Source of the DNA: Vicugna vicugna
Taxonomy: Eukaryota
Assembly (NCBI GenBank): GCA_013265495.1
Contig: MU057416.1
Location: 924,545 to 988,544 of the forward strand
Length of the DNA stretch: 64,000 bases
Direction of reading: 5' to 3'
Of this stretch, positions 4,561 through 63,698 are shown piece by piece (the first letter of the stretch is position 1; every line of letters begins with the position of its first letter). The notes beneath the pieces were generated by a model, which worked only from the letters and a program-made list of their open reading frames with translations, did not search any database and was not told the origin of the DNA. Position numbers and translations under genes: made by a program.

Positions 4561-4567
4561 TCAAGAT

Positions 4568-4613
4568 TAATAACAATAATAACAGTAGTAGTAGTAGTAG
4601 TAGTAGTAATAAT
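4568..4613. repeat. (AAT)/(AGT)8 microsatellite
   Basis: aataacaataataac(agt)8aataataa read directly. Confidence 0.95.
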
Positions 4614-6280: not shown

Positions 6281-7082
6281 CTAGAAAATTAAGTGAAAGG
6301 TAACAAATATAAAAATAGAGTAGCAAGCATAAGCCTGGATACCCCAGGACAGGAAACTAGTGACTAAAGGTTCCCCAAAGAGGAAAAGCAAGGAAGCTCT
6401 AGGTCTTGGCCTGTCTTTATTTCCTCTGAGAGTTTCCCAGAACCTTCCTGGGAAGATCTGTGGGCAAGGCTGTGAGTAAGTCCTGGAGAAAAGGACTCAT
6501 CACAACCAGGGGATCCAGCAAGGATGAGGTGTGGTCCTGGCGTGGGACATCCAGCAAGAATATGGATGGGAGACGGAGACAGATGCTGTCTGTGGCCAGC
6601 CTTTGGTTCTCAGCAGGGCAGATCCTAACGTGACCGGCAGTGAAATGCATACCCTCGGTTTATACGGGTTGCAGGAATGAAACACAAGTGGAGATAGCCT
6701 GTCCCACCCGATACCAAGACTTGCAAAGCAGTAGCATGAAAGGCAGCGTGGCACTGGGGCAAGAAGCATCAAAAAGGCCAGAGGAGCAGCCAGGAGGAGC
6801 CAGATGGAGCACTGATGTGTCACAAACACAGCACTGCAGAGGACAGCGGTGTCTTCAGCCAGCAGTGCTGGGCCAGCCAGCTATCCACACAGAAAACAAT
6901 TAAAACTTGATGGCTAACTTAAGAGCTAAGAATATATTTTTTAAATGAAATTTCAAATGGATGGTAGACATAAACATCTAGGGCAAAACAAGTGATCAAA
7001 ACAAAGTGTAGAATATTTTCAAGTGTTCAGGGTAGGAAAAGTTGTTTTTAAATAGAACACAAAAACACCAGTGCTACTGTCA

Positions 7083-7762
7083 GTTGGAATGTAAATTGGT
7101 GCAGCCACTATAGAAAACAGTATGGAGGTTCCTCAAAAAACTCAAAATAAGAGCATACCACCCAGCAACCCTGCTCCCAGGCGTGTATCCACAAAAGACA
7201 AAAACCCTAATTCAAAAAGACACATGCACCCCAATGTTCACAGCAGCACTATTTACAGTAGCCAAGACATGGAAGCAACTGGATAAAAAAGATGTGGTAT
7301 ATTTATGCAATGGAATACTACTCAGCCATAAAAAAGAATGAAATAATGTCATTTGCAGCAACATGAATGGACCCAGAGATGATCATACTAAGTGAAGTAA
7401 GTCAGACAGAGAGAGACAAATATCATATAATGTCACTTATATGTGGAATCTATAAAATAATGCAAATGAATCTATATACAAAACAGAAAGAGACTTCACA
7501 GACATATAAAACAGACATGGTTATCAAAGAGGAAATGGGCGGAGGAGGGATAAATTAGGAGTTTGGGATTAACATAATTACTATGTATAAAATAGGTAAG
7601 TAAAAAGGATTTACTGCATAATACAGGGAACTACAATCCACATCTTGTAACAACCTGTTACGGAAAATGACCTAAAAAAATTATACGTATATAACTGAAC
7701 CGCTCTGCTGTGTACCTGAAACTAACACACTACTTTAAATCAACTCTACTTCAATATTTTTA
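7083..7762 (+). mobile_element. Cetartiodactyl-type L1 3' fragment
   Basis: ggaatgtaaattggtgcagccact...gggataaattaggagtttgggattaac...aaatcaactctacttcaat. Confidence 0.9.
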
Positions 7763-19060: not shown

Positions 19061-20684
19061 TCTCATCTACAACTTAAACTATGCATGCAGACCACTTTTC
19101 AAGTGCTTGCTTAAGCTCCTTGACGCCTTAAAAGGATTTTCCGACGTAGAATTTTCATTACTCTTAAATGGTTTGAATAATGAAAACTATTTCTCTGAAA
19201 GCCCTCTGAATTTGTGAGCACACAGCATCATCCCCCGCCTGGCCCTGATCAGAGCCGTCGGGCAGACTCGGGCTGCGTGTCAGCGCGTGGATCATCTGTT
19301 TTACGATTTACTTAATTCAACGTAGTACCTCCCTCTGCTGCTTACGCACCAGCACTATTGATCTGCCCTTTCCCAAAGCAGGTAATCCAGATCCGGATCG
19401 AACCTGTCTCTGCCAGTAACAGTCTCTCTGGGAGACGGTTCTATTTAGAACGTTTCAGGGGCCGCCTAGTTATCTGCTCATTGTTAGGGACGGTGGGCGA
19501 GGCCGAGGCAGACAAGCAGCCTCAGCTGGCCGCTGGAAGGACGGCCAGGGCTGGTATTATTAAAAGGATAGACGATATATTCTATGCCCTATGGAAAAGA
19601 GTTGGATACTACATCTTGACCCAGAACTTATTAAAAAATCCATTACCTTTTTAATTCAATTTCATAATACCCTTTGGAATTTCAATTTAGGCATTTCTTA
19701 CCAAAATAATAGGCAGCTTTACTACCGGACACAGGAAATAGAGTCTCTCCCACTGACAATTCTAACATGACGGTTACTAATTTATTATTGACAAATTCAT
19801 ATTCTTACTCTTTGAAAAAAAAATGGTGGAGAGGTGCATATCTTTTTCTCCGAAGGAGATCTGAGGTGAACTTGGCCGTTTTCCTTGTGTTAATCCTACA
19901 GTGGGGCACAAATTCTAGTTTATTGGACTGTTCGTCTTTGTCTGACAAGACCGAGATCAGCCCCTCCAGGTGCTCAGGAGATCTGCACCCCGTGGACTTT
20001 GAAAACAGCAGTACACAGTGGAAGAGAACAGACAGCAATGTTCTCGCAGTCTGGGGTCATCATTCACTCACAACATCGAAGGTGGCGCGTGGCCACGGCA
20101 GAACCACTGGCTGCCTCTGGTGGCCGGGAGCCAACACCTGCTCCCCTCCTTCCGACGCACATGCAAGACAAACACGTGCCCCGTGAAACGACACCACCGG
20201 CTCCTTCTTCCCCTGCTCTGGGGCAATCAACCGCTCTGAGCATCCTCCGGCCTCTGGAACCAGGTCCCCCTCGGGCCTCCCTCCCACAATGTTCCTGAGT
20301 CTTGCAGGTGCCTTGTGGAAATGCTAACACAGCTGAGCTTCCTCCCGGCTGTGGCTAAAAGCAACTGAAGGCCAGGCGGTGCCCCCGCTCCGGCTAGTGA
20401 AGGTCTTTTCCAGCTGGTTCCTCAGCCATCTTTTAAAATAATCTACCAGCAGAAAACTGTTTGAGTAGTGGGTGCTTCAATGATTGTTCTAACTGACCCA
20501 AGGAACAAGTGCCTGGTAACACCAGCTTTGAGCGTTGCTTCCTTAATCTGGGCCTCAGAATCGACGCGTATCTCATGGGTGGAGCGTGACTGCAATTCGG
20601 GGCACAGCCTGAAAGGCTTTCAAGGGCTTCGATCCGCCACAAGCGTATCACTATTCAGCAGGACGCGTAAGATAGCAGGTGCGG

Positions 20685-20980
20685 GCACCGCTGACCCCGG
20701 GCCCCTACTTTACCCTCCCACACCCCTGTCCCCTTTGGTGGCCGTCGGTTTGTTCTCTACGTCCGAGAGTCTGTTTCTGCTTTGTTAAGTTCATTGTGCC
20801 ATTTTTTTAGATTCCACGTATAAATGATATCATACGGTATTTGTCTCTGTCTGACTTACTTCACTTAGTAAAGAATACGAAAAAAATACATATGTGTAAC
20901 AATCAAAATACTGTACCCCAGAAACTAGCAAAACGTAAATCAACTCTACTTCAGTTTAACAACAACAACAAAAAAAAAAC
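20685..20980. mobile_element. 5'-inverted (twin-primed) L1 insertion
   Basis: Antisense L1 3' UTR piece 20685-20870 joined to sense L1 terminus 20871-20980 with an A tail; degenerate TSD agcaggtgcgg / agcaggtacag. Confidence 0.8.
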
Positions 20981-21732
20981 ACCAGCAGGTACAGCTCAAC
21001 GGGGATTCTAGAAAATACGTAAATTATCATTTAAACACCTCGACGTGTCTGTCAGAAGAGAAACACCGGAGGCAGGCAGTTCTACATTTGAGGAACACGA
21101 TGTTCAGCGCCTTTCCATTTCTGGGCTCTTTCTGACCGCTCAGCGCCCTTTCTTTCTGTTTTAACCCCAGCCCTTCCCAGGAGGGACGCGTGGAGAAAAC
21201 AAGTCCATTTAGCCCGAGAGCCCCCGCAGCGGGCGGGAGCCGCGTGGCCAGTCGGCGCTCAGGGACACGCCAGCCTGGCTCAAAGGTGCGCCATCCAAAC
21301 GATGGAAAAGGCAGAGAGCACCTGACGGGCGCGGGTCAGAGAGGCCAGGAGAGGTTCCAGAGCCGGAAGGCAGCCTTTTTTATTAAACAAATATGCGGCA
21401 CTACCCACCCAGCGCAGAGGAAAAAGCATTCAGCCGCAGATTTCTGTGTCCTGGAATTTAACCTGTGCTTTGGGATTCAGAAAGCTGATAAAAGGCGAAT
21501 GATCAGCACCAGCTGCGGTGCTGCAAACCGCTCTAAAAATGGATCCTCACAGCAGCTAAAATGCTAAGTCCAGCAGAGCTATGTGAGCAGCTTAACTGGT
21601 AAATTGGTACATGCAGTGAAAGTCAGACATACTCATAGATAGGGACAAAGAATATTTGGAAACGAAAATCTAATTCAAAGAGATTTCTTGAGCATCCTTT
21701 CACAAAGCGTCCGGCAAGACCACACGCTTCAG

Positions 21733-21760
21733 GCTGAGTCATGATTTCTGCTGAGTCATG
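21733..21760. promoter_or_regulatory. Tandem AP-1/NF-E2(NRF2-MAF) sites
   Basis: GCTGAGTCATG twice at a 17-bp offset; the second is a perfect TGCTGAGTCAT (21749-21759). Confidence 0.5.
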
Positions 21761-21952
21761 TTATGAAGACCGGATTCTAGGGTTTCCTGCTGCCAAGCCC
21801 CAGGAGCCCTGGCCCAGCTCCTGTGCACATGGCAACCCGAGGGCCACGGCAAGGAGCCGACTGCCGTGCCAGGGGCTGAGAGACAGTCAGAGCCATAGCT
21901 AACTGCCCTCCAGTGTTACTGGGTACCCAGAGCTTTTGTGTGTGTGTGTGTC

Positions 21953-22745
21953 TTTTTTTTCCCCTTTTATTTATTTTTATTTTTTAATTTTTAAAAAAAT
22001 TTTTATTGAAGTGTAGCTGATTTACAATGTTAGTTTCAGGTGTACAGCAAAGTGATTCAATTACACATATACGTACATATGTATTTTCTTTTCAGATTCT
22101 TTTCCATTACATGTTATTACAAGAAATTGAATATAGTTCCCTGTGCTCTACAGTAGGTCCTTGTTTATTTTATATACAGCAGTGTGTGTCTGTTAATACC
22201 CAACCCCTAATTTATCCCTCCCCGCCCTTTCCCCTTTGGTAACTATAGTTTGTTTTCTATGCCTGTGAGTCCATTTCTGATTTGTAAGTAAGTTCATTTG
22301 TATTATATTTTTTAGATTCCACATACAAGTGGTATCATATGGTATTTGTCTTTCTCTGTCTGACTTACTTAGTACGATAATCTCTAGGTCCATCCATGTT
22401 GCTGCAAATGGTATTATTTCATTCTTTTTTATGGCTGAGCAATATTCCATTGTCTGTGTGTGTGTGTGTGCGTGTGTGCGTGTGTGTGTGTGTACACCAC
22501 ATCTTCTTTATCCAGTCATCTGTCAGTGGACACTCAGGTTGCTTCCATGTCTTGGCTGCTGTAAATAGTGCTGCTGTGAACACTGGGGCGCATGTGTCTT
22601 TCTGAGTTATACTCTTCTCTGGGTGTGTGCCCAGGAGACGGACTGCTGGATCATAGGTAAGTCTAGTTTTAGTTTTTTAGGGAACCTCCACACTGTCCTC
22701 CATAGCGGCTGCACCAAGTTACATTCCCACCAGCAGTGCAGGAGA
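21953..22745 (-). mobile_element. Cetartiodactyl-type L1 3' fragment containing (TG)n at 22455-22492
   Basis: T-rich tail then ttttattgaagtgtagctgatttacaatg...ttacattcccaccagcagtgca; reverse-frame peptide [16 protein letters not shown] is the L1 ORF2 C-terminus. Confidence 0.92.
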
Positions 22746-22759
22746 GTCTGGACCTTTTT

Positions 22760-22977
22760 TAAGCACTTCATATATATTGGCTCACTCAACCTTCCTAACA
22801 GCTCCACGAGGTATGTATTTTTATTTTCTTTTTCTCCCCTTTTCCTCCCAATAAGGAGATGAACCTCCCATAGTTTCGGCGACTCGCCCATTTAAACAAC
22901 GAGTAAGAAACAAAGCCGGGGTTCAGCCCCAGGCAGGATGTCCCGGAGTCTGTGGTCTGTCCCCCATACTGTGCTGT
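22760..22977 (-). mobile_element. MIR SINE
   Basis: aagcacttcatatatattggctcactcaacc...aagccggggttcagccccaggcag matches reverse-complement MIR. Confidence 0.7.
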
Positions 22978-24341
22978 TTCTGAAATTTGTCGCAACTTTT
23001 TAATATAGCGATTTTGTCTCTGGAAGTCAAAGAACAACAAGGATCATGTTTCTTAGTTCTACAGACTCATCCCCAATGCTATTTTTCATGGAAATTAATA
23101 ATTAAATGGTTTACTTCATTGACAAATATTCACTAGTATACATTCACGAGAAATCAAATTACTAACATGTTTTCTCTAAAATAAATTTTAAACACTGTAT
23201 GAAATGTGCATGCAGTGAGTAAATCCAGACAACAAATGTGCATAATGAGCCAAAAGTAAATTAAGTAACATTTAATCCATTTGTTTGGGTCAAAATATGG
23301 TTCTGCATAATTTACCAAAATGATGGAAGAAATGGAAAACAGAACAGAAAATTGGCCTTTATCCTCTGATAAAACATTATGTTTTCCTCTTTCCTCTAGT
23401 CCAATCTGAGGTTATGTATCAAGCATCCCCCATAATTTATAAGCAGTGTACTTTCTGTTCCTGAAAACTATTCTGATGTTCAGCCTGCCTACAACTTTAT
23501 TCCTTTAACCACTTCTCCTCCAGAGCTAGCACGAGCAGACTGCCTTTTTGGTACTGAATACAATAAACAGTTACCATCACCTACCAGTGTCACCAGTTTT
23601 CAGGCATCCCTGGATAAGACAGAAGTAAGTCCAAGCTGCCGCTTGTTTACAGTTGCTCTTCTATGATGATCTGGATACTAAATGGTTCATGACACAACTT
23701 GGATGTTGAATGGTTCGTGGAAAAAATATTGTAAAATAAAATTTCTGCCTCGATTAATGAAGTATTCTGATAGGATAATTTGAACGCAAATGTATTAACC
23801 ATTAAACCAACTTATCGAGACAGTTCATGAAACTGAAGACACACAGACCCAGCTACAAAATTATTTTATTTACTATTAGTATTAGGACAGAGTCTGGGAA
23901 AGCAGATTCTTTTTTAAAAGACAGTTCACGGTGACATGTACCATGTGATGCCAGTTGTGATCAAGTATGAATTCATTAGTTCACACACGTATTTTCACTA
24001 GACTTCCTTCATCTGAGAAGGCGCAGAGGAAGGAAATTACTGATTCTTCCTCCTCACGTGACATGAAACGCAGACCAGCTACCTGAAGGGCTGAGTACGC
24101 TGTGCTCCTTACTTCCTGTGATGTAAGTCAACTGCGCAAAGCACCTGAAGGAGTTGTGCTGGTGTGTTCAATACCCTGCATCCTGGGACACTACGTAATT
24201 GAAGGACAGAAAGAGAGAGGAAACGAGGTGTGAAAGTCCCACGTGATGTCGTCGTGCCACTTGAGTCGTTACGCAAAGCAGAGGGAATGAGCACTGCTGG
24301 TTGTGCTGCTGCAGCAGGCGTTCTTAAAACTAGTTTCTCCT

Positions 24342-24980
24342 GAACAGACTCACCGTGTGACCCAGGAACCCCGCTTCTGGGCGTGTACCCAGAAGGAGCC
24401 CTGCTTCAGGATGACACCTGCACCCCAGTGTTCACAGCAGCACTATTTACAACAGCCAAGACACGGAGACAGCCTAAGTGTCCATCAATGGATGACTGGA
24501 TAAAGAAGATGTGGTATATTTATACAATGGAATACTACTCAGCCATAAAAACTGACAACATAATGCCATTTGCAGCAACATGGATGCTCCCGGAGAATGT
24601 CATTCTAAGTGAAGTAAGCCAGAAAGAGAAAGAAAAATATCATGCAAGATCACTCATATGTGGAATATTAAAAAAAAAACAAAGCATAAATACAAAACAG
24701 AAACAGACTCACAGACATAGAATACAAACTTGTGGTTGCCAAGGGGGCAGGGGGTGGGAAGGGACAGACTGGGATTTCAAAATGTAAATAGATAATCAAG
24801 ATTATACTGTATAGCACAGGGAAATATATACAAGATCTTGTGGTAACTCACAGAGACAGAGAAAAAACATTGAATATATACATGTTCATGTATAACTGAA
24901 AAATTGTGCTCTACACTGGAATTTGACACAACATTGTAAAATGATTATAAATCAATAAAAATGTTAAAAAATAAATAAAA
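24342..24980 (+). mobile_element. Young (lineage-specific) L1 3' fragment with TSD
   Basis: ORF 24383-24787 ([14 protein letters not shown]...WIKKMWYIYTMEYYSAIK) is the ORF2 C-terminus; TSD taaaactagtttctcct / taaaattagttttctcct; closely similar to the copies at 54.3 kb and 63 kb. Confidence 0.95.
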
Positions 24981-25239
24981 TTAGTTTTCTCCTTAAATAG
25001 CTGAAGTATTTCTGCTGCAGTTGTAAGTAACTTACAATCTTACAGGGGAGGCGGGCACTGGGGAAGAGATGCGGAAAGTCCAAAGGACCTCAGGCTTGTG
25101 CCCTCCAGAAGCCCACCTCCCCATGGTCCCCTGAAGTGCCTTATTTCCGCCCCATCCCACCCTGTAATATAGCCTGTTCTATGTTAGGTGTCCCCTCTCC
25201 CCTACACTTCCTGAAGGTACCATAAAAAAAGAGAGGTAT

Positions 25240-25350
25240 CAGAGTGAAACAGACTCCTTCCTGAACCCCAGCTCCACCACTAGGTAGCTCTGTGACCTTA
25301 GTTAAGCTTCCTAGTCCTCAAATTTTCAGTTTCTTCACCCACAAAATATG
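25240..25350 (+). mobile_element. MIR fragment
   Basis: ccccagctccaccactaggtagctctgtgaccttag...cagtttcttcacc. Confidence 0.65.
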
Positions 25351-26009
25351 ACTCATAGAAACATTTTAAAAATACCATTTCTGAAAAACTGAGTCCTTCC
25401 CTTTCTCTTTTATGGAAATTTTACTTTAAATGTACTTTCCGAAATCCCCAAGGGTTTTGTTCAATATATCATCTTTCAGTTATTCAAGAGTTGGCCATCC
25501 CACTTACAGACTGTTTTAAATTTGTAACTTCTCCCACTTGCTTGGCTCGTCCGGACCGCTGGGCTGAGTCACCGTCAGGTGCGGAGTCAGAGCAAGGGAA
25601 ACCACCAACTGCACTCAAAGCAGGGAAATCCTGCGAACAGGAGCCAAACGGCCGTGTGTGTCTCACCGGCACGCGCCTCTCGAGGCCAATCGCTGTTCTT
25701 CATCGAACGTCGACAGTTCTCTTCTTCACCATCTCAGACCCCGTCTTCCCGGCTTACAACAGCCGCACCCTGCAAGAGTCTGCCGTTGGTTCCTGGCTCA
25801 GAGTGGACCCCCCGTTTACTAAATCCCTCGTTTATTTGAAACAACTTGCTTGTGATCTGTTGTAACACGTGTCATCATCAAGTCATCATTTCAAATGTAA
25901 GGATGACGTTAGCATGTAATGAAAAAGGGAAACACACAAAAAGAGCTGATCCGGGCCATCCATAAACGCTCTCCTCTTCTCTCTGGACCCTTTAAGCATT
26001 TGCTGAAAA

Positions 26010-26407
26010 TTTTTTTAATTGAAGGACAGCCGATTCACAATGCTGTGTTAGTTTCCGGAGCACAGCACAGTGACTCAGTTACACACACATTTCATACTCG
26101 TTTTCGTTACAGGCCATTACGAGACACTGAATACAGTTCCCTGTGCTCTGCAGTATAGGAACTTGCTTATCTGTTTTATACATAGTAGTTAGTATCTGCT
26201 AATCCCAAACCCCTAATTTATCCCCCCACCTCCTCTCCTTACTGGTAACCGTAAGTCTGTTTTCTACGTCTGTGAATCTGTCTGTTTTGTAAATAAGTTC
26301 ATTTGTGCCATTTTTTTAGATTCCACATCTAAGTATAATATTTGTCTTTCTCTTTCTGGGTTACTTCACTGAGTGTGTCTCTAGGTCCATCCATATTGCT
26401 GCAAATC
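26010..26407 (-). mobile_element. L1 3' fragment with 17-bp TSD
   Basis: L1 3' UTR on the minus strand; flanks ggaccctttaagcattt (25985-26001) / ggaccatttaagcattt (26408-26424). Confidence 0.9.
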
Positions 26408-26934
26408 GGACCATTTAAGCATTTTTATTTTCACTTTGTAGTTATATAGTTGCCAAGTGTACCCAAGAGGATCTACTCCCACAGGTTGGGACTGGAGGAC
26501 CTAGCAAGATGTTACACTCCAGTCGCTGTAGGTGGAAAAGCCAGATTCACATCAAAGCAACAAGCCGCCACACAGCGACCTGACTCTGGAAGCGACCTTG
26601 TTCACCAGCATCACTGAGAGACAGCGCACAGTGGGGTGTGAGATAAAGAGCACGCGTTAAACAAAGGGTCAGGGTCTTCTCCCAAAGATCTACAATGAAC
26701 TCTCTTTGAAATGGAGGATCTTTGTGGATGGTGCAGGCTGTGGTCAGGAAAGAGCCACAAAGGTCTCCAGACACCGCCTTCTCTCACCACTCCCACTGCG
26801 GCTCCTTCCCTGTCACTCGTTCTCCATCAAAGAAAACTGACTTTTCGATGCAGTTTCAAAAATCTGGTGTGTACACCTTACTGTCTGAGTAATGGATGCC
26901 CACCTCCACACCGAAGAGTGTCTGACTGATATTT

Positions 26935-27040
26935 CATAATAACTATAAATGGACTATGATCTTTAGAAATTGTGACGCACACTGTTGTACACTTGTAATT
27001 TTTATAATATTGTACATCAACTATATTTCAATTAAAAAAA
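26935..27040 (+). mobile_element. Short L1 3' terminus
   Basis: tataatattgtacatcaactatatttcaattaaaaaaa. Confidence 0.75.
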
Positions 27041-27164
27041 TAGATATCTGAAAAGATAATCACTTTGGTTTAGGAAAAAAAGAGAGTCTTAATATGGGCA
27101 CTTTGTGTTCATCTCTAAAACAGATGCTAACGTCCTTATCTTATGTATCAATGGGTAAAGAATT

Positions 27165-27245
27165 GTGTTCAATCCCTAGTACTTTCTCTAAATAGATAAA
27201 TAAACCTAATTACCTCCGCTCCTAAAGTAAATAAAATTAAAAAAG
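27165..27245 (+). mobile_element. 5'-truncated vic-1-like SINE
   Basis: gttcaatccctagtac...taaacctaattacctcc tail shared with the other copies. Confidence 0.75.
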
Positions 27246-28069
27246 TATTCCTTGAGAAGAAGTTCCTTTGATCAGCTCGATTTCTGCTTAGACAGATGGA
27301 TCTCAGACTGAGAGGAGTTTGGCTCAAGGACAGGTGAGGTGGGGAGAGAAAGACATTTGGAAGGTGAGGCATGTGGGAGGCAGTGAGCCCTGAGGGCTGT
27401 AAGGCACGGGGCTGTGAGCAGCCCAGGACTGCGTGCAGAGGGGGCACCAGGCAGCAGAAGGGGGTGTCTGGCCACAGGAGACGCACCTTACCAACCCGGC
27501 AGTATTTTCCAGTGCGACCGGCCGGGAGCCCGGGAGCCCAGAGCCGGTCCCTGTGATTTTCTGGTCTGCAGTGCGAGAGGAGGCTGCCTCAAGGGCTCTC
27601 TGAAAGGGCATGGGCGAAGAGCCCAGAGAGGAGGCTGGACTCAAGAAGGAGCCGCCACCTTTCTTCCGTCTGCCTCACCCTACGCCTCTGCCAGGGGGCG
27701 CGATTCGGACGTGCCTGCCTCACTCAGACTGGGGCATTTTGAGAACAAATGATGCAATTTCCTTGTGAGCCAGATCTGTGACCGGAACCGGCACAATGCT
27801 AGACGCTGCCAACGACGCACGGAAATCCCACAGGTGACTGAGGTTCCCGTAACCTCTTACGTTTAATAAGAGAAAGCTGCTTATGAGAACATTTTTAAGA
27901 AATGAGTGTCGCAATGCCTAGAAACTTACTGTTCTCAGAAAAAGTAAGCTGTCCTCTGCAGAGTACGGTGCAAGATGATTTTAGCAGCGATCAGGAACCT
28001 TTCTCGGAGGCCTAAGAACAGGGAGCCATAGAACAGGACTGACTCCCCCGGCCAGGCAGGCGGGGGAGC

Positions 28070-28232
28070 TGGCACCCACCATCTCGGGCGGTCGCCACAG
28101 CGGCCCGGGCAACCGCTGCAGGTGCAGCCGTTGTTCAGATTCGGGATCTGAAGCGTGAAGCACACCTGTTCCAGGCAGCGCAGCCAGTGAATGCTGAAGG
28201 CAGAATTCAGATCCAGACGGGGGGCTCTTAAG
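28070..28232 (-). mobile_element. GC-shifted MIR
   Basis: cagattcgggatctgaagcgtg...gcagccagtgaatgctgaaggcagaattcagatccagac is colinear with reverse-complement MIR. Confidence 0.5.
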
Positions 28233-28457
28233 CAGAGGCTGGCAAATTCTTCCCATAAAGGGCTCCACAGTAAGTATTTCCAGCACCGCGGGACACACAG
28301 CCTCCCTCGCAACGCTTCAGATCTTCCCCGGCAGTGGGAAAGCAGCCACAGATGCCACGGTAACAAACAGGGCGACAATGTCAATAAAACTTTATTTACA
28401 AAAACAGGCAGGCGGAGGACCAGATTTGGTCCAGGTGACTCTGGAATGCCCACCCCG
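28233..28457. mobile_element. MER58A (hAT-Charlie) DNA transposon fossil
   Basis: cagaggctggcaaattcttcccataaaggg...caataaaactttatttacaaaaacaggc...tgcccacccc. Confidence 0.85.
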
Positions 28458-28734
28458 CCCCGACCCATTATTGCCAGGTGCTGCCTCTTAGTATATTTCA
28501 TTTCATGCAGGAAAACTGAAAAGATCTGGAGCTTCCATACCCCAGTTGCTATCTGGCACGCCCTGACTTCCTTGTTACTCTGTTAAGGAGCCCGAAATGC
28601 ACTGAAAACGTGCAGATCGCTTTTATAAAAGGGGTGGAAGACGTGACTGCTGTTTGACAGAGCTGCTGAGACATCCCACTGCTCGCCTGCCTGAAAGAGA
28701 AGCACAGAGGCTGTACCGTCTACCTGAGCCGCCC

Positions 28735-28840
28735 TCTGCCCCCTGGCCCCCGTCCCCTGTTCTCCATCCTCTGTCCCCCGTCCCCTGTCCTCCATCCTCC
28801 ATCCCCCGACCTCCATCCTCTGTCCGCCATCCCCTGACCT
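28735..28840. repeat. Degenerate C/T-rich ~7-mer repeat
   Basis: ctccatc/ctgtccc/ccgtccc units repeated. Confidence 0.7.
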
Positions 28841-30879
28841 CCAGGCTGCCTGAGGAGCCAGAAAACTCCCTGCTGGCTCAAGAGACTGCCCCACGTAGAA
28901 CATTCAGCTTGGTCAGTAGGGCGTTTGCTTCCAAAGACCAAGAGCCATGTAATACCGTCCGATGGTCCAGGACAGATGTGGGGATAAAGTCTACACTGAA
29001 GATACTCCGGGGAACTGAAACGACGACCAGAGGCGCTTCCACCAGGCATGCGGCAGGTCGGAGTCTGGAAAATGTGCTCCGTCTCGGAAGGTTTCCGTGT
29101 CCCACTGAGCCCCACCTTCGACACTTACAGCTGCAGGGGCGGGAGTTCGCATTTACACGTGGTGCTGACCTCATTGTCAAAAGCAGATTTGGTGGCACCA
29201 CCCTCCCCTTACTCCCCGCCATCCCTTCACCTGACGGAAGGGAAAAGGCTTCTGCAAAAAACCAGGGAGCCGACCCCAGCGATCCTCTTGCAGGTCAGCA
29301 CCGTGTGTCTAGAGCTCTGGTCTCCACCACCTCTTCCCTGGAGAGGGCTGTATTCGTTGCGTTTGGGTGCTGCGCGGTGTGCCTGCGTCCCAGAGAAACC
29401 AGGCACTAAGCACAAGTGTTCAAACTGACAAACTAGCCAAGATGTTGGCCAGCCTACTTCCCAGTCCATTAGTTCCTCTATCACAGGGTTAGCATTTCAG
29501 CGTTGCAAGCCGGCTTGTGGTTTTCTTGCCCCTGCTCCTCCTGTTTCTCTCCCTCTCACCCCCACCTCCCTCCCATTCACGACCTGGTTACCTTGTTTCT
29601 ATAGCTACTAATAGCAGAGCTACCTCGGGCCGTAATGGAGTTTGCCTCTCTCATTCTTATTTTAAAGAAAATAGAAAATTGAGTCCTTTAAAACTTAGTG
29701 AATTCCTGCTTTTTAATTGCTCTGCCTCTGATGGAAAATCTGCTTTACCATGCCTGATTTTATATCATTTGAAACGGGGTGGCCAGCATGTGCGCATTTA
29801 GATGATGGGGCAGATAGAGTTATCTTTTCTTGAACTGAATTCTGGAGAATAAACAATTATCCTCATTTCCAGTAGGAAGTGGCAGATAATAAAACCCACC
29901 TGTATTTGCACAAATCTTTCAGCTTTCGCTCCAAATTAAGAGAAAACCTGTTATAGTCACTCGGGCAATTTCAAATTTCAATTAAACGTCTTAAAAAAAA
30001 AAGTGCCACTCTCTGGGTTACAAATAAAAATGCCCCTGTTTTTGTCGGGAAGGCAGAAGATAGTTCAGCAGATTTATGGGAAAGCAAATTTTTTTCTATC
30101 GATCGATCCCTGGAGGGGCATTAACTACTCTTAAGGGAGCTTATTACAGAAGATGGCACAACAGACGTGCCCCACAGACGGAGTGAGGACGCTGAGAAGC
30201 GGAGGAGGAAATGGAACACTTTAATGTTACATCCTGGTCATACCAAGGTCCATCGGCCCTGTGCTCATTCCAGGTAATTAATTTACAACACATTAAACCT
30301 CGATGAGAATAAGGCTGTTATGCATCAAATGTGTAGGAATAAAAAGTGTTACTGATTGAGGATTTCTGTTGTATCATCTGCTGACAGAAACCACCACCAC
30401 CGAGTTACCTCTCACAGACGCAGCGAGTCTTCGCTGAAGGACAAAGCTCCGAGTAAGTGCCCTCTGGACGGCACTCAGCGGGAGCGGCCCTGCCTGCGAG
30501 GGGTTCTGCGGGGTGAATCGGGGAGAGCCATCAGCCAACCGGCGTGTCTAACACATATTGATAAATAAGCACTCTAGACATCAAATTTGGAGATGTGATA
30601 ATGATCTTTACAGTAAAGGTCTAAAATAGCGCCCTGCCCTCTGCCCAAGCCGACCATTAATATTTATTAAATAAAATATGAGGGGAACATTAATTTTAAA
30701 CGACTGACATAAATCAAAGCTCTCTTCCTTTTGAAGTGGAGGAATTAGGAAGGTAAGGCCACGCGAGCTTGAAGCCGTGATGGTTTGAAGAGACCCAGTT
30801 TCAACTTTAAACGTTAAACGGCTTCATTAACGAGGAGAACTAGCACATTGGAGGAAAAAGAAAAGACAATGAGTAACAT

Positions 30880-35689: not shown

Positions 35690-36240
35690 AACAAAACACT
35701 CTAATTCTAAAAGACACATGCACCCCAACATACAGCACTATTTACAATAGACAAGAGATGGAAGCAACCCAAGTGTCCATCAACAGATGACTGGATAAAG
35801 CAAATGTGGTGTGTATACAATGAATACTACTCAGCCATAAAAAAGAATGAAATAATGCCGTTTGCAGCAACATGGATGGACGGAGAGATTGTCATAGCAA
35901 GTGAAGTAAGTCAGACAAAGACAAATACAATATGATATCATTTACATGTGGAACCTAAAAATAATGATACCAATGAACACATTTATAAACCAGAAACAGA
36001 CTCACAGACATAGAAAACAAACTACGGTTACCAAGGGGAAATTGGGAGGAGGGAATAAATTAGGAGTTTGGGATTAACAGACACACATTACCATATATAA
36101 AGTAAACAACAAGAGCCTACTGTAGAGCACAGGGAACTATATTCAGTATCTTGTAATAACATACAGTGGAAAAGCACAGAATCACTGAATCAGTTTGCTG
36201 TACACCTGAAACACTGTAAACCAACAATACTTCAACCAAA
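35690..36240 (+). mobile_element. Cetartiodactyl-type L1 3' fragment
   Basis: aaagacacatgcacccca...gccataaaaaagaatgaaataatgcc...tacacctgaaac. Confidence 0.9.
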
Positions 36241-36419
36241 GAAAAAAGGAAGAAAGAAAAAAACAATTGTTCGGTTAGCACCTGGGATGTGGCAGGCACT
36301 GCGCTGGGGCCGGATGCACCCAAGTCAGTCAGATACAGTCTGTCCCCTGGAGAGGCTTCCCTGGAGAAGCCTGGTAAGCACGTATGTTTTTAAAAGATTT
36401 TTCAAAAATTCCCCTAATT

Positions 36420-37000
36420 GCCAGCGCGTTATCGTCGGGCTGCGCCCCCAGACCTGCGCGGCCTGTACTCACCCAGCTTCCAGACCCAAGAGAGAACCGG
36501 GAGTCGGCGACAGAGACGCCGGCGGTTCAGTGGACGGAAGCTCACACAAGGTCCCCGAGCGCCTGGCCGCCTGTGCGGGGACTGCGGGCGGGGAGGGCCC
36601 GCGGTCACCGGGGAAACCAGCGGAGGGGCACGCCCCTGCCGGCCCTCTGATGGGAAGCACCAGCAGCTGAGGCCTGGGGCCTGGGGCCACGTAACTGACC
36701 ACACTTCAATCAAAAAAGAAAAGGTTCCGAGCCGGGAGAATAGGCATGGCACAGAAAAATAGTTCTCCTTCTGCAAACACTTGGTTCTGCCGCAAACTCC
36801 TCAGTTTCTCCATGAGAAGTCAGACAGTGGCCACGGGCCGCTCCAGGCCGCGGCCCCCGCAGAAGGGGACGCGTCCTGCACGGGCACCACCGCCGCCGCC
36901 GGCTCGGGTGCGGCGCCCGCGGAAGCCTGCGGGCGAGGCCGGAAGAGGACGTTCTTCAGAGGAAAACCGACGGTGCGGGCGAAGCCGAACACGTGTGTGA
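36420..37000. promoter_or_regulatory. CpG-rich patch; left half (36434-36700) is probably a minus-strand ERV LTR
   Basis: High CpG; gacctgcgcggcctgtactcaccc...ggcgacagagac...gctcacaca resembles a reversed artiodactyl LTR end (from memory, weak). Confidence 0.45.
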
Positions 37001-40000
37001 AAGCATATTCCTTACGCCGCATGTTGTCACCAAGCTCTGGCAATAACACCACTAACAGGTATAGACTCTGTGCTAAGCCTGCAACCTGACCCTCGACCAC
37101 TCACGGCCTGAGGTCAGCACGCCCCTCAGAGCGCGGTCAGTCCAGTCCTGAGGAAGTTGCACTGTCCGAAGTCGCGCCCAGTAAGCAGTAGAAATGGGAC
37201 TGGCAACCCCAAGGGGTAGCTTAGTCATGACTTTCAAAGATCAGATTATTCCGAATGAATTCTGTGCGTATTTGCTTTTAAGATGATTATAACCCTGGCC
37301 GAGAAAGATGCTTTTTAAATGCTTAAATAATAAATCCAGTTCCCGTTAATACGTCCCCAAAGTGTGAACACAGTCAATGAGTGTCATTGTTTTAGGATAC
37401 CTAATTCACACCTTACATATTTTTCCTTGCATGGGGTTGTTTTTTCAGCCATAGGTTCTCCCATTTGTTTCTAGATGTCTTCTTTGATTTAAAAAATATA
37501 TATAAATAATAATTTCTTACCTCTAGAAAAACAACCTGAAAAAAATTAATGATCTTATTCTATAAACTACAGCTATTCTTGGCATTTAGTGCAGTGCTGT
37601 TCGGCCACCGAACTCAGCCTTCGCGTTCTGACCACGAGGTCTGGCTGCCAGTCCCTCCTCCCAGCGCCACGCTAAACTTTCTCCATTTCCCCCCGGCCGC
37701 CTCTGTGATCCCGCCCCTTTCCGGTCCCTGCTACATATAAAGCAGGCAGCGCAACCTCAAGTATCAGTAATTCCACTCAATCTGATAAATATGTTCAAAG
37801 TACCCGGCTATGTGCCTGGCTCTAGGAACTCCAAGAGACACAGCCCTTGCCCTTAGGGAGCCCACAGTTGAGGGCAGAGAGACATATCCCCTGTCTCTCA
37901 TCCTCCCCTCCATTCCCCCCCTCCTCCCTCTTTCTTCCTTTCTTCCTTGGTCTCAGGAGGAAAAGAGCAAGAGCTGAATCCCACCCCTCCTCCAGGAGCC
38001 AAGCCCAGCGCCCGGCCGGGGCATCACCGGCCCGGGGGAGGTAGGGTCTTTCCCACTGGAGCAGCTCTGCACAAGGATGCCGGTGTGATAAGGGATGTCT
38101 TCCTCCCTCTTCCCTCCCTCCCTCCGTCCTCCATCCTCCATCTTTGCTCCCATCATGATGGACCACTGTCTGTCTAGGTGTCAGATGTGCAGTGGTGACC
38201 AAGGCAGGGTTCCTACACACATGAATCTTATAGCATAGCAGGAAATATAAATAGATAATACCAGGAGGAAATGCAGCAATTTAAATATAAAGTAACATAG
38301 AACCATTAGACCAACCTGAAGAGAGAGGAGAGGAGTGTAGGCAGAAGAACCCGGGTCTGAGCTGGGTTTCCCACGTCAGCTGGAGTCTGCTGAACGGAAG
38401 ACCAACCAGGAATAGGAAACAGGACACTCAGGGACGAGAGGTGGGGCTGCCCCCGGAAGTCCCTTTTGCTCTGGCTTTAAGGAATCCTCCATGTCCCTCT
38501 CAGCACCTGGCCTCCAGGTGGGCCCACGGTCCAGGAAGACCATCACTACTGTAGCATCAGTGAGCTACGTTTTCATCTAGAATCTGCCTCAATAGGGGCA
38601 AAATGCCACGGCATTAGAATTTTCTCAGAATCTAAAATCAGGCAGAGGTCAAGCAAAAAAGGAACAAATTTCATTCCAAAGCAGAGTCAAAGCAGAAGGA
38701 AAAAAAAGTGTCCTTTAAATTGGGGGGGGGGAGCAATTCCTTCTTTCCACTTCACCATCAGTCCATACCCCAGTTGTCCAGACAGCGGCCCCAGCTCTTC
38801 CCTGCTCTCCTGTCTGGTAGAGACAGGAGCGAGCAGATCTCCAAGCATCTCAGCAAAGCCTGGATGGAGGTCGTGGACCACACCTGTTTATAGATCTATT
38901 CAACACACCTGAGACATGTTTGCTCGGGGAAGAGCCAGGGTGGGGCCCTCACACCAGCTCAGCCACCCACCGATTTCTTCATGTGACACATTGGTCCCCT
39001 CGAGTGCGGTCTGGGGTCACCTGTGGGCCACCAGAGAGGGAAGGCGGGGCTGACTTTACGAGGACTGCCGAGAGATAAGGAGCGGGCTGCAGCTTCAACG
39101 GCCACAAGGTCCAATTCTTGACCAAAAGTGAAAACAGAAATGAAGCTAGCAGAATGTTGCAAATGACAGAAAAAGAAAAAAAAGAGAGAGAAATGATCTC
39201 TTAAAGTAATATGCTATAGAGGAGGCGCTGAACAGGCATCCTGCTGAGGGCCCTTTATGAATCGTCGTGTGCTTTCTAGCCGGTCTTTTTATGATCATCT
39301 CAAGGAACTAAGTACGTATGGCGTGTTTGTGAGTAAAGCAGTGGATGAAGTTGGCTACACCTCTGCGTTTATTACCGTGCCCCTGAGTATTGTTAACTTT
39401 TACAGTCCCCATAAAATATAATTTATCACTTAAATAATTTGCTTTGTGTCAGGGTTCAGTGTGCACCAGCGCTCTCCTGCTCATTAAATGAGATATTTTT
39501 ACTTAATGAGCCAAGGATGTCCTTTGTATTTAACATTTGAATTGATTTCTAACACTTCGTCTTTACAATAGTTTGGTGTGTAATTTCAAAAAAAAAAAGT
39601 GGGTATTTCATTTCACATTGCCAAAGGACAACCATTCGGAAACCTGTTAAATACACGTAGCACTTCAAGTGATAAACGGTTTTATCCTTAACTAACCGTA
39701 GAGACTGAGCATACAAAAATCATGAAAGTATGCAGTCATAAAATAATTATTTCTTCCCATAAGGAAATCACAGAATCTGGGGACTGAAGTATGTACTGAT
39801 TGTTCAAAGCAAAACTCTGAGCCGCTCAGAAAAGAAAGTTAGGATCTGACAGGAGACGGAGTTTTAAGTCGCGGCTGCAGTAGTTAACCCCCAGCCTGGG
39901 ACGGCTCTCCACGAGAGCTACCGTCACGGTCTGATCTGGGATGGCCCGTGTGACATAGTGACCGACTGATTCAACAACGGAAAGCTTTTTAACAAACGGA

Positions 40001-61555: not shown

Positions 61556-62982
61556 ATTCTTTATCTGTCACCTCTGAACAGTGGCCCAACACCCCTGAGC
61601 TGCACCTGCCGCCCGCATACCCTGCCCCCTAAGTTCAGGTCCCCACAGTGAACTCCCAGCTGCTCCTCACATCCGGGGAGACGAGTGGACTCCGGGCTCC
61701 CGTCCTCTCCTTCCTCAGGCTGTCCTGCTCACTCGTGCTCTTTCCAGGAGTCTTTCATGTTAAACTCTGTTTCCAAGCAGCACTTTCCACCCCGTGCCCC
61801 TCCTGGGTGTCCCCCTCCCCGGCCCGGCCCCGCCTCCTCCATCCCTCTGTGGTCCCGCAGACACCACTGCGAGTGTCCTGTGAGGATTATTGAGGTCCAG
61901 GCCCTGCCAGCGGGGAAGCAGCGGAGAAACACCTTTTCCCTGCTTTGTCTTTCCCGCTCCGCCTTCCTCCTGGGCCTTGGTTCCGTTCCCTTCTCTCCCC
62001 TTCTCAGTAACAGCCCTGAAGAAAAAGAAGAGGGTTTGCCTCCCAGCAAAGAACCAGGAACTATATTTCCAACCATATTTTGCCCAACGAAATTCAACTT
62101 TTTGAAATACTGCCTCAATTTATTTTCAGAAAATATTTTCCTTTAAAGTAATGCTCATTGTTCTTTGACACGGGGGGAATTGCAAAGGATGATGGAGTGT
62201 CATGATCGTGATGGCTTCTGGTGTGCCCTGATGGGGTTTGATTTACAGACGCTCTCACGGTAGGAAAAATATCTGTCACAGGAGCATCGATCGGTGCTTT
62301 GACTGGCGGAGGTTAAGCCACAGAGAGATGCCGTCGGGGGGAAACTCCTCCCTGCTCCCTGCAGAGACTGTGTTTGATGGCTTCCAGCCCAGAGAGCCAC
62401 CGCCAGACAGAGACGTGTGAATAAAAACCGAGCGTGGCATTCACTGAGATCCTGTTCCGTGGGGTCTCATCAGACACCCTCCGCGCACCGTGGCTGACCA
62501 ACTGAGATGCGTAGCAGGGGCTTTGTCTCCCACCCCTCCTCCTCCTGAATTAGAAGGCTATTAACTCATTGGCAGACCCAGTTGTTCAAAACAATGAAAA
62601 GAATTCTGTGTAGACAGTCTCGGTTATTCCAGAGTTTCCAGTTTTGTGAGATGTTTTGTCTTCAGACGTCTTGTTTCACTATCGAGAAGATACTAAAATC
62701 TTTTCCTTTGCACATGGATGGGGCCAACAGGGAAAAGGAAGAAGATTCAATTTAGGTAGAAGTCGTTACATCCAGAGACTGCCAAGATGTTGAAGAGAAC
62801 TTGGGAATCATTTAGTACACCACCTGATGTTGAAAATGAAGAAAGTAAACACCAGAGTAAGGAGACCTTCCAAAAACACCTGTCTCATTTGTGATAAAAC
62901 AGATTGATAATTCTGGAAACCAGCCTCCACAAACAGTATTTTCTTCCAGACCCAAAACAGTATTTAGGAGAAGCCCCCCCAC

Positions 62983-63698
62983 TTTTTTAAACATTTTTTA
63001 TTGAGTTAGAGTCATTTTACAATGTTGTGTCAAATTCCAGTGCAGAGCACAATTTTTCAGTTATACATGAACATATATATATTCATTGTCACATTCTTTT
63101 TTTCGCTGCGAGCTACCACAAGATCTTGCATATATTTCCCTGTGCTATACAGTATAATCTTGTTTATCTATTCTACATTTTGAAATCCCAGTCTGTCCCT
63201 TCCCACCCCTTCCCCCCTGGCAACCACAAGTTTGTATTCTATGTCTATGAGTCTGTTTCTATTTTGTATTTATGTTTTGTTTTGTTTTGTTTTAGATTCC
63301 TCATATAAGTGATCTCATATGGTATTTTTCTTTCTCTTTCTGGCTTACTTCACTTAGAATGACATTCTCCAGGAGCATCCATGTTGCTGCAAATGGCGTT
63401 ATGTTGTCGTTTTATGGCTGAATAGTATTCCATTGCATAAATATACCACAGCTTCTTCATCCAGTCAGCTGTTGATGGACATTTAGGCTGTTTCCATGTC
63501 TTGGCTGTTGTAAATAGTGCTTCTATGAACACTGGGGTGAAGGTGTCATCCTGAAGTAGGGTTCCTTCTGGATATATGCCCAGGAGCGGGATTCCTGGGT
63601 CATATGGTAAGTCTATTCCTAGTCTTTTGAGGAACCTCCATACTTTTTTCCACAGTGGCTGTACCAAACTGCATTCCTACCAGCAGTGCAGGAGGGTT
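62983..63698 (-). mobile_element. Young (lineage-specific) L1 3' fragment
   Basis: ORF 63350-63667 ([32 protein letters not shown]) is the L1 ORF2 C-terminus; same subfamily as 24342-24980. Confidence 0.95.

What the first reader, a model, noticed from the sequence alone, without database searches (positions are those of the whole stretch)
24342..24479. Sharp A/T to G/C rewriting tract in a young L1, measurable against a paralogue in the same window
Seen: I hand-aligned 24342-24479 with the reverse complement of 63481-63618 (same L1 subfamily). There are 17 differences, and 16 have G/C in this copy and A/T in the other (e.g. accgtgtg vs accatatg, ggcgtgtacc vs ggcatatatc, ggagcc vs ggaacc). 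Both A>G and T>C occur on one strand and most are not at CpGs, which argues against CpG decay of the other copy or single-strand ADAR editing. Immediately downstream (from 24480) the differences go both ways. Inference: a recent, localised GC-biased gene conversion (gBGC) tract marking a recombination hotspot that acted after insertion.
Basis: partly seen in the sequence, partly recalled or inferred. Interest (0 to 1): 0.75.

Follow-up and report, generated by a model that had tools for sequence, protein, structure and literature searches.

The report
GC-biased substitution patch in an L1
The first 138 bases of a truncated L1 insert have gained 15 A/T-to-G/C changes and only one reverse change, and similar patches sit beside CpG-rich stretches elsewhere in this window, which is the expected footprint of GC-biased gene conversion rather than a new kind of feature.

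Summary
24342-24479 differs from the in-window paralogue at 17 sites, 16 with G/C here. Polarised against up to 59 other genome copies, this copy carries 15 weak-to-strong (W>S) changes, all transitions (8 A>G, 7 T>C), and 1 S>W. Other copies average about 2.0 and 2.3 in the same columns. No other copy shares more than 5 of the 17 alleles, and the best other genome match to the tract is 90%.

The tract is the first 138 bp of a 5'-truncated, TSD-flanked L1 3' end. It abuts a single-copy CpG-rich flank.

It is not unique. Older L1 fragments 1.6 kb to either side are also strongly W>S-biased (41:8 and 39:8), in 100-200 bp patches next to CpG-rich stretches.

The excess is a scaled copy of the background transition spectrum, and it has no ADAR context signature. 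Post-insertion GC-biased gene conversion is the best reading (about 0.6). Recombination, timing and read support could not be tested. It is a known kind of feature, of modest interest.

The parts
24326..24341 (+). 5' target-site duplication, AAAACTAGTTTCTCCT
   Evidence: Read directly. It matches 24977-24993 apart from C (here) against T at 24330 and one extra T in the 3' copy.
24342..24479 (+). The W>S tract: the first 138 bp of the 5'-truncated L1 (ORF2 C-terminal region). It carries 15 W>S transitions and 1 S>W. GC is 0.565 now, against 0.46 G/C among the majority states.
24480..24976 (+). The rest of the same L1 3' end, with an A-rich tail. There is no marked bias: about 10 W>S, 7-8 S>W, 6 other.
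24977..24993 (+). 3' target-site duplication, AAAATTAGTTTTCTCCT
23929..24341 (.). Single-copy, CpG-rich 5' flank. GC rises to about 0.5 from about 24000, and windows 24001-24500 have CpG obs/exp of 0.52-0.63. Its run of CpGs continues to 24464 inside the tract. It cannot be polarised within this genome.
26010..26209 (.). Second W>S patch, in an older L1 fragment: 29 W>S and 3 S>W (the 18 relatives average 8.5 and 4.1). It touches the CpG-rich stretch 25548-26120.
22509..22634 (.). Third W>S patch, in another older L1 fragment: 16 W>S and 2 S>W (the 15 relatives average 4.9 and 5.1).
7626..7761 (.). Further W>S patch (17:2; the 16 relatives average 4.3:3.4), at the end of an old L1 fragment nearest the CpG island that starts at about 7900.
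62981..63698 (-). It is itself mildly W>S-biased (19:8).

Best explanation
A 5'-truncated L1 3' end inserted by ordinary target-primed reverse transcription next to a CpG-rich stretch. After insertion, the roughly 550-bp CpG-rich islet (about 23.93-24.48 kb) evolved under a strong GC-biased fixation process. The most likely process is GC-biased gene conversion during meiotic recombination: heteroduplex mismatches are repaired towards G/C, so ordinary A:T>G:C mutations fix far more often than expected.

The 138 bp of L1 that lie inside the islet record this because they can be polarised against other copies. The tract's 5' edge is an observational limit, not a real boundary. Its 3' edge, near 24479, is where the islet and its CpGs end.

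The same process has written comparable 100-200 bp patches into other L1 fragments beside other CpG-rich stretches in this window.

Shown: the direction, clustering, privacy and spectrum of the changes, and their recurrence in neighbouring elements. Inferred: that recombination (gBGC) is the cause, and that the flank shares the bias.
For: 1. Derived and private. There are 15 W>S against 1 S>W, where 2.0 and 2.3 are expected per copy. No copy shares more than 5 of the 17 alleles. The best other genome match is 90%, among the 40 scored of 1886 candidates.

2. Post-insertional and regional. Independently inserted older L1 fragments on both sides show the same bias only in the window copy: 22005-22760 is 41:8 (15 relatives, W>S fraction 0.40-0.65) and 26010-26410 is 39:8 (18 relatives, 0.45-0.76). 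The bias is weaker at 7082-7761 (41:21 against a mean of 25.2:21.7) and 35694-36176 (28:14 against 14.8:15.2). The paralogue is 19:8.

3. Fixation-bias signature. In 22005-22760, W>S transitions are up (0.082 and 0.084 per site, against 0.058 and 0.045). S>W transitions are about three-fold down (0.024 and 0.034, against 0.091 and 0.086).

4. Scaled background spectrum. Measured in four old window fragments (7082-7761, 22005-22760, 26010-26410, 35694-36176), the transition excess over other copies is 1.7-2.5x for every 5' neighbour. ApT is the most mutable context there, in the background and in the tract alike.

5. Not a CpG artefact. Only 3 of 15 changes make a CpG.

6. Patches abut CpG-rich stretches, and the window as a whole is CpG-retaining: obs/exp 0.51 against 0.18 pooled in 58 other loci.

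7. The one TSD base difference has C in the copy next to the tract and T in the distant copy.

8. Precedent. [quoted passage not shown]
Against: - No recombination, polymorphism, outgroup or read data could be brought to bear, so the link to recombination is an inference.
- W>S transversions are not raised. They are 0 of 15 in the tract, 18 observed against 17.8 expected over five other segments, and 7 against 4.2 in the five patches. A plain W>S fixation bias should raise them too.
- S>W is not clearly depressed in the tract (1 against 2.3), nor at 35.7 kb or 7 kb.
- The implied time-averaged acceleration of non-CpG W>S transitions is about 10-fold (12 against 1.2). That needs a strong or long-lived hotspot. 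The genome carries a PRDM9-like locus, and PRDM9-directed hotspots are usually short-lived (recalled knowledge).
- On the + strand of the five patches, T>C (52 against 9.4 expected) rises more than A>G (29 against 10.8). Most of this comes from one patch. Pure gBGC is strand-symmetric.
- The patches were picked after seeing the data.
- A younger L1 at 53458-54304 shows no bias (4:11, only 6 relatives).
Confidence: 0.6

Rival explanations
1. A local mutational bias, not a fixation bias. Hypomethylated, CpG-rich islets undergo an A:T>G:C transition-prone repair or replication process in the germline. This enriches G/C and grows the islets into neighbouring repeats without any role for recombination.
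For: - The excess is confined to transitions. W>S transversions are 18 against 17.8 expected.
- S>W is near normal in several segments.
- The patches sit against CpG-rich stretches.
- There is a + strand T>C over A>G asymmetry in the patches.
Against: - S>W transitions are three-fold depressed in 22005-22760 and 0.62x in the patches (10 against 16.2). A pure mutational input would not do this.
- In four old window fragments the excess over other copies is uniform across 5' neighbours, so it looks like a scaled background spectrum rather than a distinct signature.
- Stronger gBGC on transitions is already reported (abstract).
Confidence: 0.15
2. An event at or before insertion. Either ADAR-type adenosine deamination of the L1 RNA and/or of the RNA:cDNA hybrid, or error-prone synthesis at the 5' junction, rewrote the last-copied 138 nt in one step.
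For: - The tract begins within 4 bp of the 5' end of the insertion.
- All 16 changes are transitions.
Against: - A>G (8) and T>C (7) are interleaved on one strand.
- There is no 5'-G depletion (2 of 14 sites mutated) and 0 of 18 sites with a 3' G are mutated. ADAR neighbour preferences are recalled, not taken from a call.
- Ten other copies truncated within or near this region show no comparable cluster just inside their 5' ends. The maximum is 6, in L036.
- Older, separately inserted fragments nearby carry the same kind of patch, away from any 5' junction.
Confidence: 0.06
3. Inherited or copied alleles. The G/C states come from a rare L1 sub-lineage, or from ectopic gene conversion by a donor copy.
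For: - L036 shares 5 of 11 comparable alleles (24383G, 24385G, 24428G, 24435C, 24453C).
- Several sites (24355, 24357, 24383, 24385, 24428, 24468) vary among copies.
Against: - The best non-self match to the tract is 90%. Only 40 of 1886 candidates were scored, so a rare donor could have been missed.
- Eight sites have the G/C allele in at most 2 other copies.
- L036 is not close to this copy outside the tract.
- A donor would bring differences of all kinds, not only W>S transitions.
Confidence: 0.05
4. Selection. The flank plus the tract is an exapted regulatory element, exon or structured RNA, and the G/C changes were favoured.
For: - The islet is CpG-island-like.
- It lies about 0.7 kb downstream of an exon-like ORF that ends in a GTAAGT donor.
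- Fold z-scores are -1.9 and -1.8.
Against: - There is no Pfam match in 91 window ORFs, including those spanning the tract.
- There is no Rfam match in 20000-29000.
- The fold z-scores are marginal: 9 of 200 shuffles fold as well on each strand.
- The same W>S pattern recurs in several unrelated L1 fragments, which selection would not predict.
Confidence: 0.05
5. An assembly or sequencing artefact in this stretch.
For:
- The best public run holds 0.86 of the sampled words of 23700-25300. That would still allow the tract to be missing.
Against: - Twenty runs from 8 studies and 3 organism labels hold at least 0.75 of the words.
- I know of no error process that yields only A:T>G:C transitions in several separate patches (my own knowledge, not from a call).
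Confidence: 0.04

Closest known systems
Biased clustered substitutions and gBGC tracts in mammals, for example the human accelerated region HAR1
   Same: A roughly 100-150 bp stretch with many substitutions, nearly all W>S. [quoted passage not shown] HAR1 and HAR3 are best explained by a gBGC model (PMC3278478, passage).
   Different: - Here the substrate is a dead L1 fragment with no sign of function.
- The ancestral state comes from paralogous copies, not from an outgroup.
- All changes are transitions.
- Timing and lineage are unknown.
GC peaks and gBGC-driven CpG islands at recombination hotspots in dogs
   Same: GC-biased substitution is concentrated in and around unmethylated CpG-rich stretches, and gBGC is inferred to have generated new CpG islands away from genes (PMC4350167, abstract only). 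Here the W>S patches abut CpG-rich islets.
   Different: The dog pattern is tied to loss of PRDM9. This genome has a PRDM9-like locus with SSXRD, PR/SET and zinc-finger reading frames. Its intactness was not established. No recombination map was available.
Deaminase-edited retroelements (APOBEC G>A clusters; ADAR A>G hyperediting)
   Same: Dense clusters of one class of transition in a retroelement copy relative to its relatives. Such G-to-A clusters are detected by pairwise and consensus filters (PMC4866542, one passage).
   Different: - The direction is W>S, not G>A.
- Both A>G and T>C occur on one strand.
- There is no ADAR neighbour signature.
- Neighbouring older elements share the bias.

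Membership tests
gBGC tract / biased clustered substitutions | Derived substitutions are overwhelmingly weak-to-strong | tested here: met
   15 W>S against 1 S>W, polarised on up to 59 copies.
gBGC tract / biased clustered substitutions | Substitution density is far above the local and family background, clustered at sub-kb scale | tested here: met
   15 against 2.0 expected. The next-best cluster in 59 copies is 10. Tract against the rest of the element gives Fisher p = 2.7e-6.
gBGC tract / biased clustered substitutions | Strong-to-weak substitutions are depressed at the same time | tested here: inconclusive
   Tract: 1 against 2.3 expected, too few to tell. 22005-22760: 8 against about 24.6, clearly depressed. 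35.7 kb and 7 kb segments: not depressed.
gBGC tract / biased clustered substitutions | The bias applies to all W>S classes (fixation bias, not a special mutational signature) | tested here: inconclusive
   In four old window fragments the transition excess over other copies is uniform across contexts (1.7-2.5x). W>S transversions are not raised (18 against 17.8; 7 against 4.2). A published abstract reports a stronger effect on transitions.
gBGC tract / biased clustered substitutions | Not explained by CpG hypermutability or CpG retention | tested here: met
   12 of 15 changes are outside CpGs. Non-CpG W>S transitions are 12 against 1.2 expected.
gBGC tract / biased clustered substitutions | Coincides with elevated recombination (LD map, DMC1/H3K4me3) and with a W>S derived-allele-frequency skew | not testable with these tools
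ADAR-hyperedited retrocopy | A>G on the sense strand only | tested here: not met
   8 A>G and 7 T>C, interleaved.
ADAR-hyperedited retrocopy | 5' G depleted and 3' G favoured at edited A (preference recalled, not from a call) | tested here: not met
   Tract: 2 of 14 sites with a 5' G and 0 of 18 sites with a 3' G are mutated. In the old window fragments the 5'-G context shows the largest excess.
L1 sub-lineage / diagnostic alleles | Several copies share the allele set | tested here: not met
   At most 5 of 17 alleles shared. The best tract match is 90%, among 40 scored of 1886 candidates.
5'-truncated L1 insertion by target-primed reverse transcription | Target-site duplication, A-rich 3' tail, and a TT/AAAA-like cleavage site (consensus recalled) | tested here: met
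   16/17-nt TSD at 24326-24341 and 24977-24993, an A-rich tail before 24977, and CTT|AAAA at the site. Alignments to other copies mostly start at 24342, and none starts upstream of it.
CpG island (GC > 0.5, obs/exp > 0.6, > 200 bp; criteria recalled) | Composition thresholds over the flank plus the tract | tested here: inconclusive
   The 300-bp windows 24001-24500 have GC 0.507-0.533 and obs/exp 0.52-0.63, which is borderline.

The most novel reading that the evidence does not exclude
The window holds a set of long-lived, roughly 0.5-kb GC/CpG islets that keep converting adjacent sequence by A:T>G:C transitions only. This would happen in a mammal that still carries a PRDM9-like gene. That would mean one of two things. 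Either these are stable, CpG-islet-anchored recombination hotspots acting alongside PRDM9, or there is a transition-specific (G:T/A:C mismatch) GC-biased repair process that grows CpG islets into neighbouring repeats. The dated L1 insertion would give a direct measure of its strength: about a 10-fold acceleration, or a time-averaged B near 10.
Probability: 0.2. Interest if true: 0.55.

Novelty: new member of a known kind. Interest (0 to 1): 0.3.

Why it matters
A dead L1 fragment is a neutral recorder with a known starting sequence and a known start time. This tract therefore shows that a HAR1-like burst of W>S substitutions can arise without function. It also gives a rough measure of how strong the bias was (about 10-fold for non-CpG transitions).

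Together with the neighbouring patches, it points to a cluster of GC/CpG islets in a camelid-like genome. That cluster would be a good place to test whether such islets are made by recombination, and whether the bias acts on transitions only. The process itself is well described in other mammals.

Tried and rejected
- **Read and contig support and cross-species comparison.** Nothing was laid, so the shares say nothing about the tract itself.
- **Metagenome scan** for the junction flank: 0 matches.
- **Earlier findings of this scan:** nothing near the locus and no look-alike windows.
- **Gene context.** Pfam on 91 stop-to-stop ORFs of the window gave no family, so the host gene is unnamed. The exon-like ORF 23436-23627 rests only on its open frame and its GTAAGT donor.
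- **Structured RNA.** No Rfam family in 20000-29000. Fold z-scores were -1.92 and -1.76, each with 9 of 200 shuffles folding as well. Rejected as not significant.
- **Flank polarisation.** 23900-24341, 22761-23900 and 24994-26009 are single copy in this genome, so they cannot be polarised here.
- **CpG-retention artefact of majority-rule polarisation.** Considered because old families lose CpGs in most copies. Rejected for the tract (3 of 15 changes) and for the region (non-CpG W>S transitions 116 against 67.0 expected).
- **Insertion-linked mechanism.** Ten other 5'-truncated copies show no comparable cluster.
- **L036's flank as a replicate CpG-rich context.** It is not CpG-rich.
- **Literature on PRDM9 or hotspots in camelids.** A listing of 12 of 24 papers contained nothing usable.
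- **Literature on ADAR traces in genomic L1.** A listing of 12 papers and one passage gave no direct precedent.

Full report
**Observation**

The stretch 24342-24479 and the reverse complement of 63481-63618 align without gaps and differ at 17 positions. Sixteen of these have G/C in the first copy. A two-sided binomial test against 50:50 gives p = 2.7e-4.

**Anatomy**

- BLAST alignments of 24300-25000 to 30 other genome copies and the in-window paralogue mostly begin at 24342. A few begin up to 18 bp further in, and none begins upstream, although those copies continue upstream.
- The 16 bases before that point, AAAACTAGTTTCTCCT (24326-24341), recur as AAAATTAGTTTTCTCCT at 24977-24993, after an A-rich tail.
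- The element is therefore a roughly 635-bp, 5'-truncated L1 3' end with a target-site duplication, and the tract is exactly its first 138 bp. The site CTT|AAAA fits the L1 endonuclease preference (recalled).
- The 5' flank 23900-24341 is single copy in the 2.03-Gb assembly. From about 24000 its GC is near 0.5. It carries a run of CpGs from 23929 that continues to 24464 inside the tract and then stops.

**Polarisation**

I fetched 30 copies matched with the tract included and 29 matched only on 24480-24965. I aligned all of them and compared each copy with the per-column majority (at least 60%) of the others.

In the tract the window copy has 15 W>S changes, all transitions (8 A>G, 7 T>C), and one S>W change (24376 C>T).

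- 24468 is about half-and-half in the family.
- 24428 and 24453 are additional W>S sites that the paralogue shares.
- Three sites (24355, 24383, 24428) are clearly polymorphic among copies.
- Three of the 15 changes lie in CpGs.

**Is it more than chance or a subfamily effect?**

- The 47 untruncated other copies average 2.0 W>S and 2.3 S>W in the same columns. P(>=15) is about 4e-9.
- Across all 59 other copies, the densest 138-bp W>S cluster is 10.
- Within the same element, W>S per W site is 15/74 in the tract and 10/317 beyond it (p = 2.7e-6). S>W does not differ: 1/63 against 8/159.
- No copy shares more than 5 of the 17 alleles.
- A genome search with the tract alone finds nothing better than 90% identity, among the 40 scored of 1886 candidates.
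- One oddity remains. L036 shares 5 of its 11 comparable sites, yet it is not close to this copy elsewhere.

**Age**

Outside the tract the copy is 87-94% identical to other copies. It has 24 changes against the majority in 476 scored columns. It is not a very young insertion.

**The neighbourhood changes the picture**

The window contains several older L1 fragments. For four of them I fetched 15-18 relatives each and polarised them in the same way.

| Window segment | W>S : S>W in the window copy | Relatives elsewhere |
|---|---|---|
| 7082-7761 | 41:21 | mean 25.2:21.7 (n = 16) |
| 22005-22760 | 41:8 | W>S fraction 0.40-0.65 (n = 15) |
| 24342-24479 (the tract) | 15:1 | mean 2.0:2.3 (n = 47) |
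| 24480-24965 (rest of the L1) | 10:7-8 | mean 7.5:6.9 (n = 47) |
| 26010-26410 | 39:8 | W>S fraction 0.45-0.76 (n = 18) |
| 35694-36176 | 28:14 | mean 14.8:15.2 (n = 16) |
| 53458-54304 (a younger L1) | 4:11 | mean 10.3:11.2 (n = 6) |
| 62981-63698 (the paralogue) | 19:8 | not computed |

The excess is patchy at 100-200 bp:

| Patch | W>S : S>W | Relatives, mean |
|---|---|---|
| 22509-22634 | 16:2 | 4.9:5.1 |
| 26010-26209 | 29:3 | 8.5:4.1 |
| 7626-7761 | 17:2 | 4.3:3.4 |
| 7082-7217 | 11:5 | 4.7:4.6 |

- The stretches between the patches show no excess.
- The alignment under the 26-kb patch is clean.
- The strongest patches lie at the ends of the fragments nearest to CpG-rich stretches: 25548-26120, the island from about 7900, and, for the tract, 23929-24341.
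- The whole window has a CpG obs/exp of 0.51 and GC of 0.449. The 58 other 3.4-kb loci give 0.18 and 0.38 pooled, with a maximum of 0.425.
- Similar patches exist elsewhere in the genome. Among 65 relatives of the old fragments, 7 have at least 12 W>S in 150 columns. Of these, L070 (23:4), L065 (13:3) and L078 (12:4) have at most 4 S>W.

**Spectrum**

- In 22005-22760, W>S transitions are raised (0.082 and 0.084 per site against 0.058 and 0.045) and S>W transitions are about three-fold lower (0.024 and 0.034 against 0.091 and 0.086).
- Summed over five other segments, the window copies give these counts:

| Class | Observed | Expected from relatives |
|---|---|---|
| Non-CpG W>S transitions | 116 | 67.0 |
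| CpG-making W>S transitions | 19 | 8.5 |
| W>S transversions | 18 | 17.8 |
| Non-CpG S>W transitions | 40 | 57.7 |

- In the five patches, W>S transitions are 81 against 20.2, W>S transversions 7 against 4.2, and S>W transitions 10 against 16.2. The patches were chosen after seeing the W>S counts, so only the other classes are unbiased there.
- In four old window fragments the transition excess over other copies is roughly uniform across 5' neighbours (1.7-2.5x, highest after G). ApT is the most mutable context in those window copies, in the background and in the tract, where 12 of the 15 changes sit at such sites.
- That is what a fixation bias acting on the ordinary mutation supply would give. 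It is not what ADAR would give (5'-G avoidance and 3'-G preference, recalled).

**Mechanism**

The best reading is post-insertion GC-biased evolution of a roughly 0.55-kb islet that spans the L1 junction. GC-biased gene conversion is the most likely cause.

- The 5' boundary of the tract is an observational limit.
- The only glimpse into the flank is the TSD. Its one base difference has C next to the tract and T in the distant copy. This is consistent with the bias crossing the junction, but it cannot be polarised.
- The lack of any rise in W>S transversions is the main departure from a simple model. A preprint abstract reports that gBGC strength differs between transitions and transversions, with GC frequency tracking recombination more strongly for transitions. 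That makes the departure less troubling but does not explain it.
- The implied acceleration is about 10-fold for non-CpG W>S transitions. It requires either a very hot or a long-lived hotspot. With the standard relation B/(1-exp(-B)) (established theory, not from a call), that is a time-averaged B near 10.
- In dogs, stable CpG-island hotspots with strong gBGC follow loss of PRDM9 (abstract). This genome has a locus with SSXRD, two PR/SET pieces and a 399-aa zinc-finger reading frame. PRDM9 loss is therefore not indicated, although no KRAB was seen among the ORFs tested and intactness is unproven.

**Rivals**

- *A recombination-independent, transition-specific mutational bias at CpG-rich islets.* This fits the transversion result and a + strand T>C over A>G asymmetry (52 against 29, where 9.4 and 10.8 are expected). 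It does not fit the S>W deficit.
- *An insertion-time event (ADAR, or error-prone synthesis).* This is contradicted by the two-strand pattern, by the context test, by ten other truncated copies without such clusters, and by the patches in older fragments.
- *Subfamily alleles or an ectopic donor.* Contradicted, with the sampling caveat given above.
- *Selection on an RNA or a protein.* No support.

**Comparison with what is known**

The tract works like the biased clustered substitutions described in primates. [quoted passage not shown] It also resembles the GC peaks and new CpG islands of dogs (PMC4350167, abstract). The defining association with recombination was not testable, so membership is inferred from the substitution pattern alone.

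**Verdict**

This is a new example of a known kind of feature, and its main value is as a dated neutral recorder. Interest is 0.3.

Noticed in passing
window 26010-26209, 22509-22634, 7626-7761, 7082-7217: Four further 100-200 bp W>S-dense patches in older L1 fragments (29:3, 16:2, 17:2, 11:5). The strongest lie next to CpG-rich stretches. 26010-26209 is as dense as the reported tract.
   Followed up: yes
window 1-64000: The whole window has a CpG obs/exp of 0.51 and GC of 0.449, against 0.18 and 0.38 pooled in 58 other 3.4-kb loci of the genome. There are strong CpG islands near 3900-4600, 8400-9400, 36300-37200 and 46400-46900.
   Followed up: partly
window 24857-24870: Eight differences from the family majority within 14 bp of the same L1, of mixed types. 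This looks like one complex or slippage event rather than point substitutions.
   Followed up: no
window 53458-54650: A younger L1 copy (about 95% identical to other copies) has an internal deletion of about 350 bp relative to them. The deletion removes the region homologous to the tract. Its W>S:S>W ratio is 4:11, so it shows no GC bias.
   Followed up: partly
window 23436-23627 (+): An open frame that ends at a consensus-like donor (AG|GTAAGT) about 0.7 kb upstream of the L1. It is a possible exon of an unnamed host gene. It has no Pfam match.
   Followed up: partly
L036 (G000:C10346:10738404-10741895): Another 5'-truncated copy shares 5 of 11 comparable tract alleles with the window copy (24383G, 24385G, 24428G, 24435C, 24453C). 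It is not close to the window copy elsewhere, and its flank is not CpG-rich. This is unexplained; recurrent change at mutable ApT sites is possible.
   Followed up: partly
L127:8781-9631 and L128:945-4387 (G000:C4951:22000-41999): A PRDM9-like locus: an SSXRD motif, two PR/SET-domain pieces, and a 399-aa open frame with C2H2 zinc fingers. L128 also contains a 207-N gap. No KRAB was found among the ORFs of at least 40 aa that were tested. A second SSXRD match lies on C9436.
   Followed up: partly
L127:2159-2398: An 80-aa open frame matching Ribosomal_L39 lies upstream of the PRDM9-like locus. It is probably a processed copy.
   Followed up: no
five W>S patches (736 bp in all): On the + strand, T>C (52 against 9.4 expected) rises more than A>G (29 against 10.8). 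Most of this comes from 26010-26209 (21 against 5). It may be a strand asymmetry or an effect of base composition.
   Followed up: partly
L070, L065, L078 (relatives of the old window fragments): Copies elsewhere in the genome also carry W>S-dense patches with few S>W (23:4, 13:3, 12:4 in 150 columns). The phenomenon is therefore genome-wide.
   Followed up: partly
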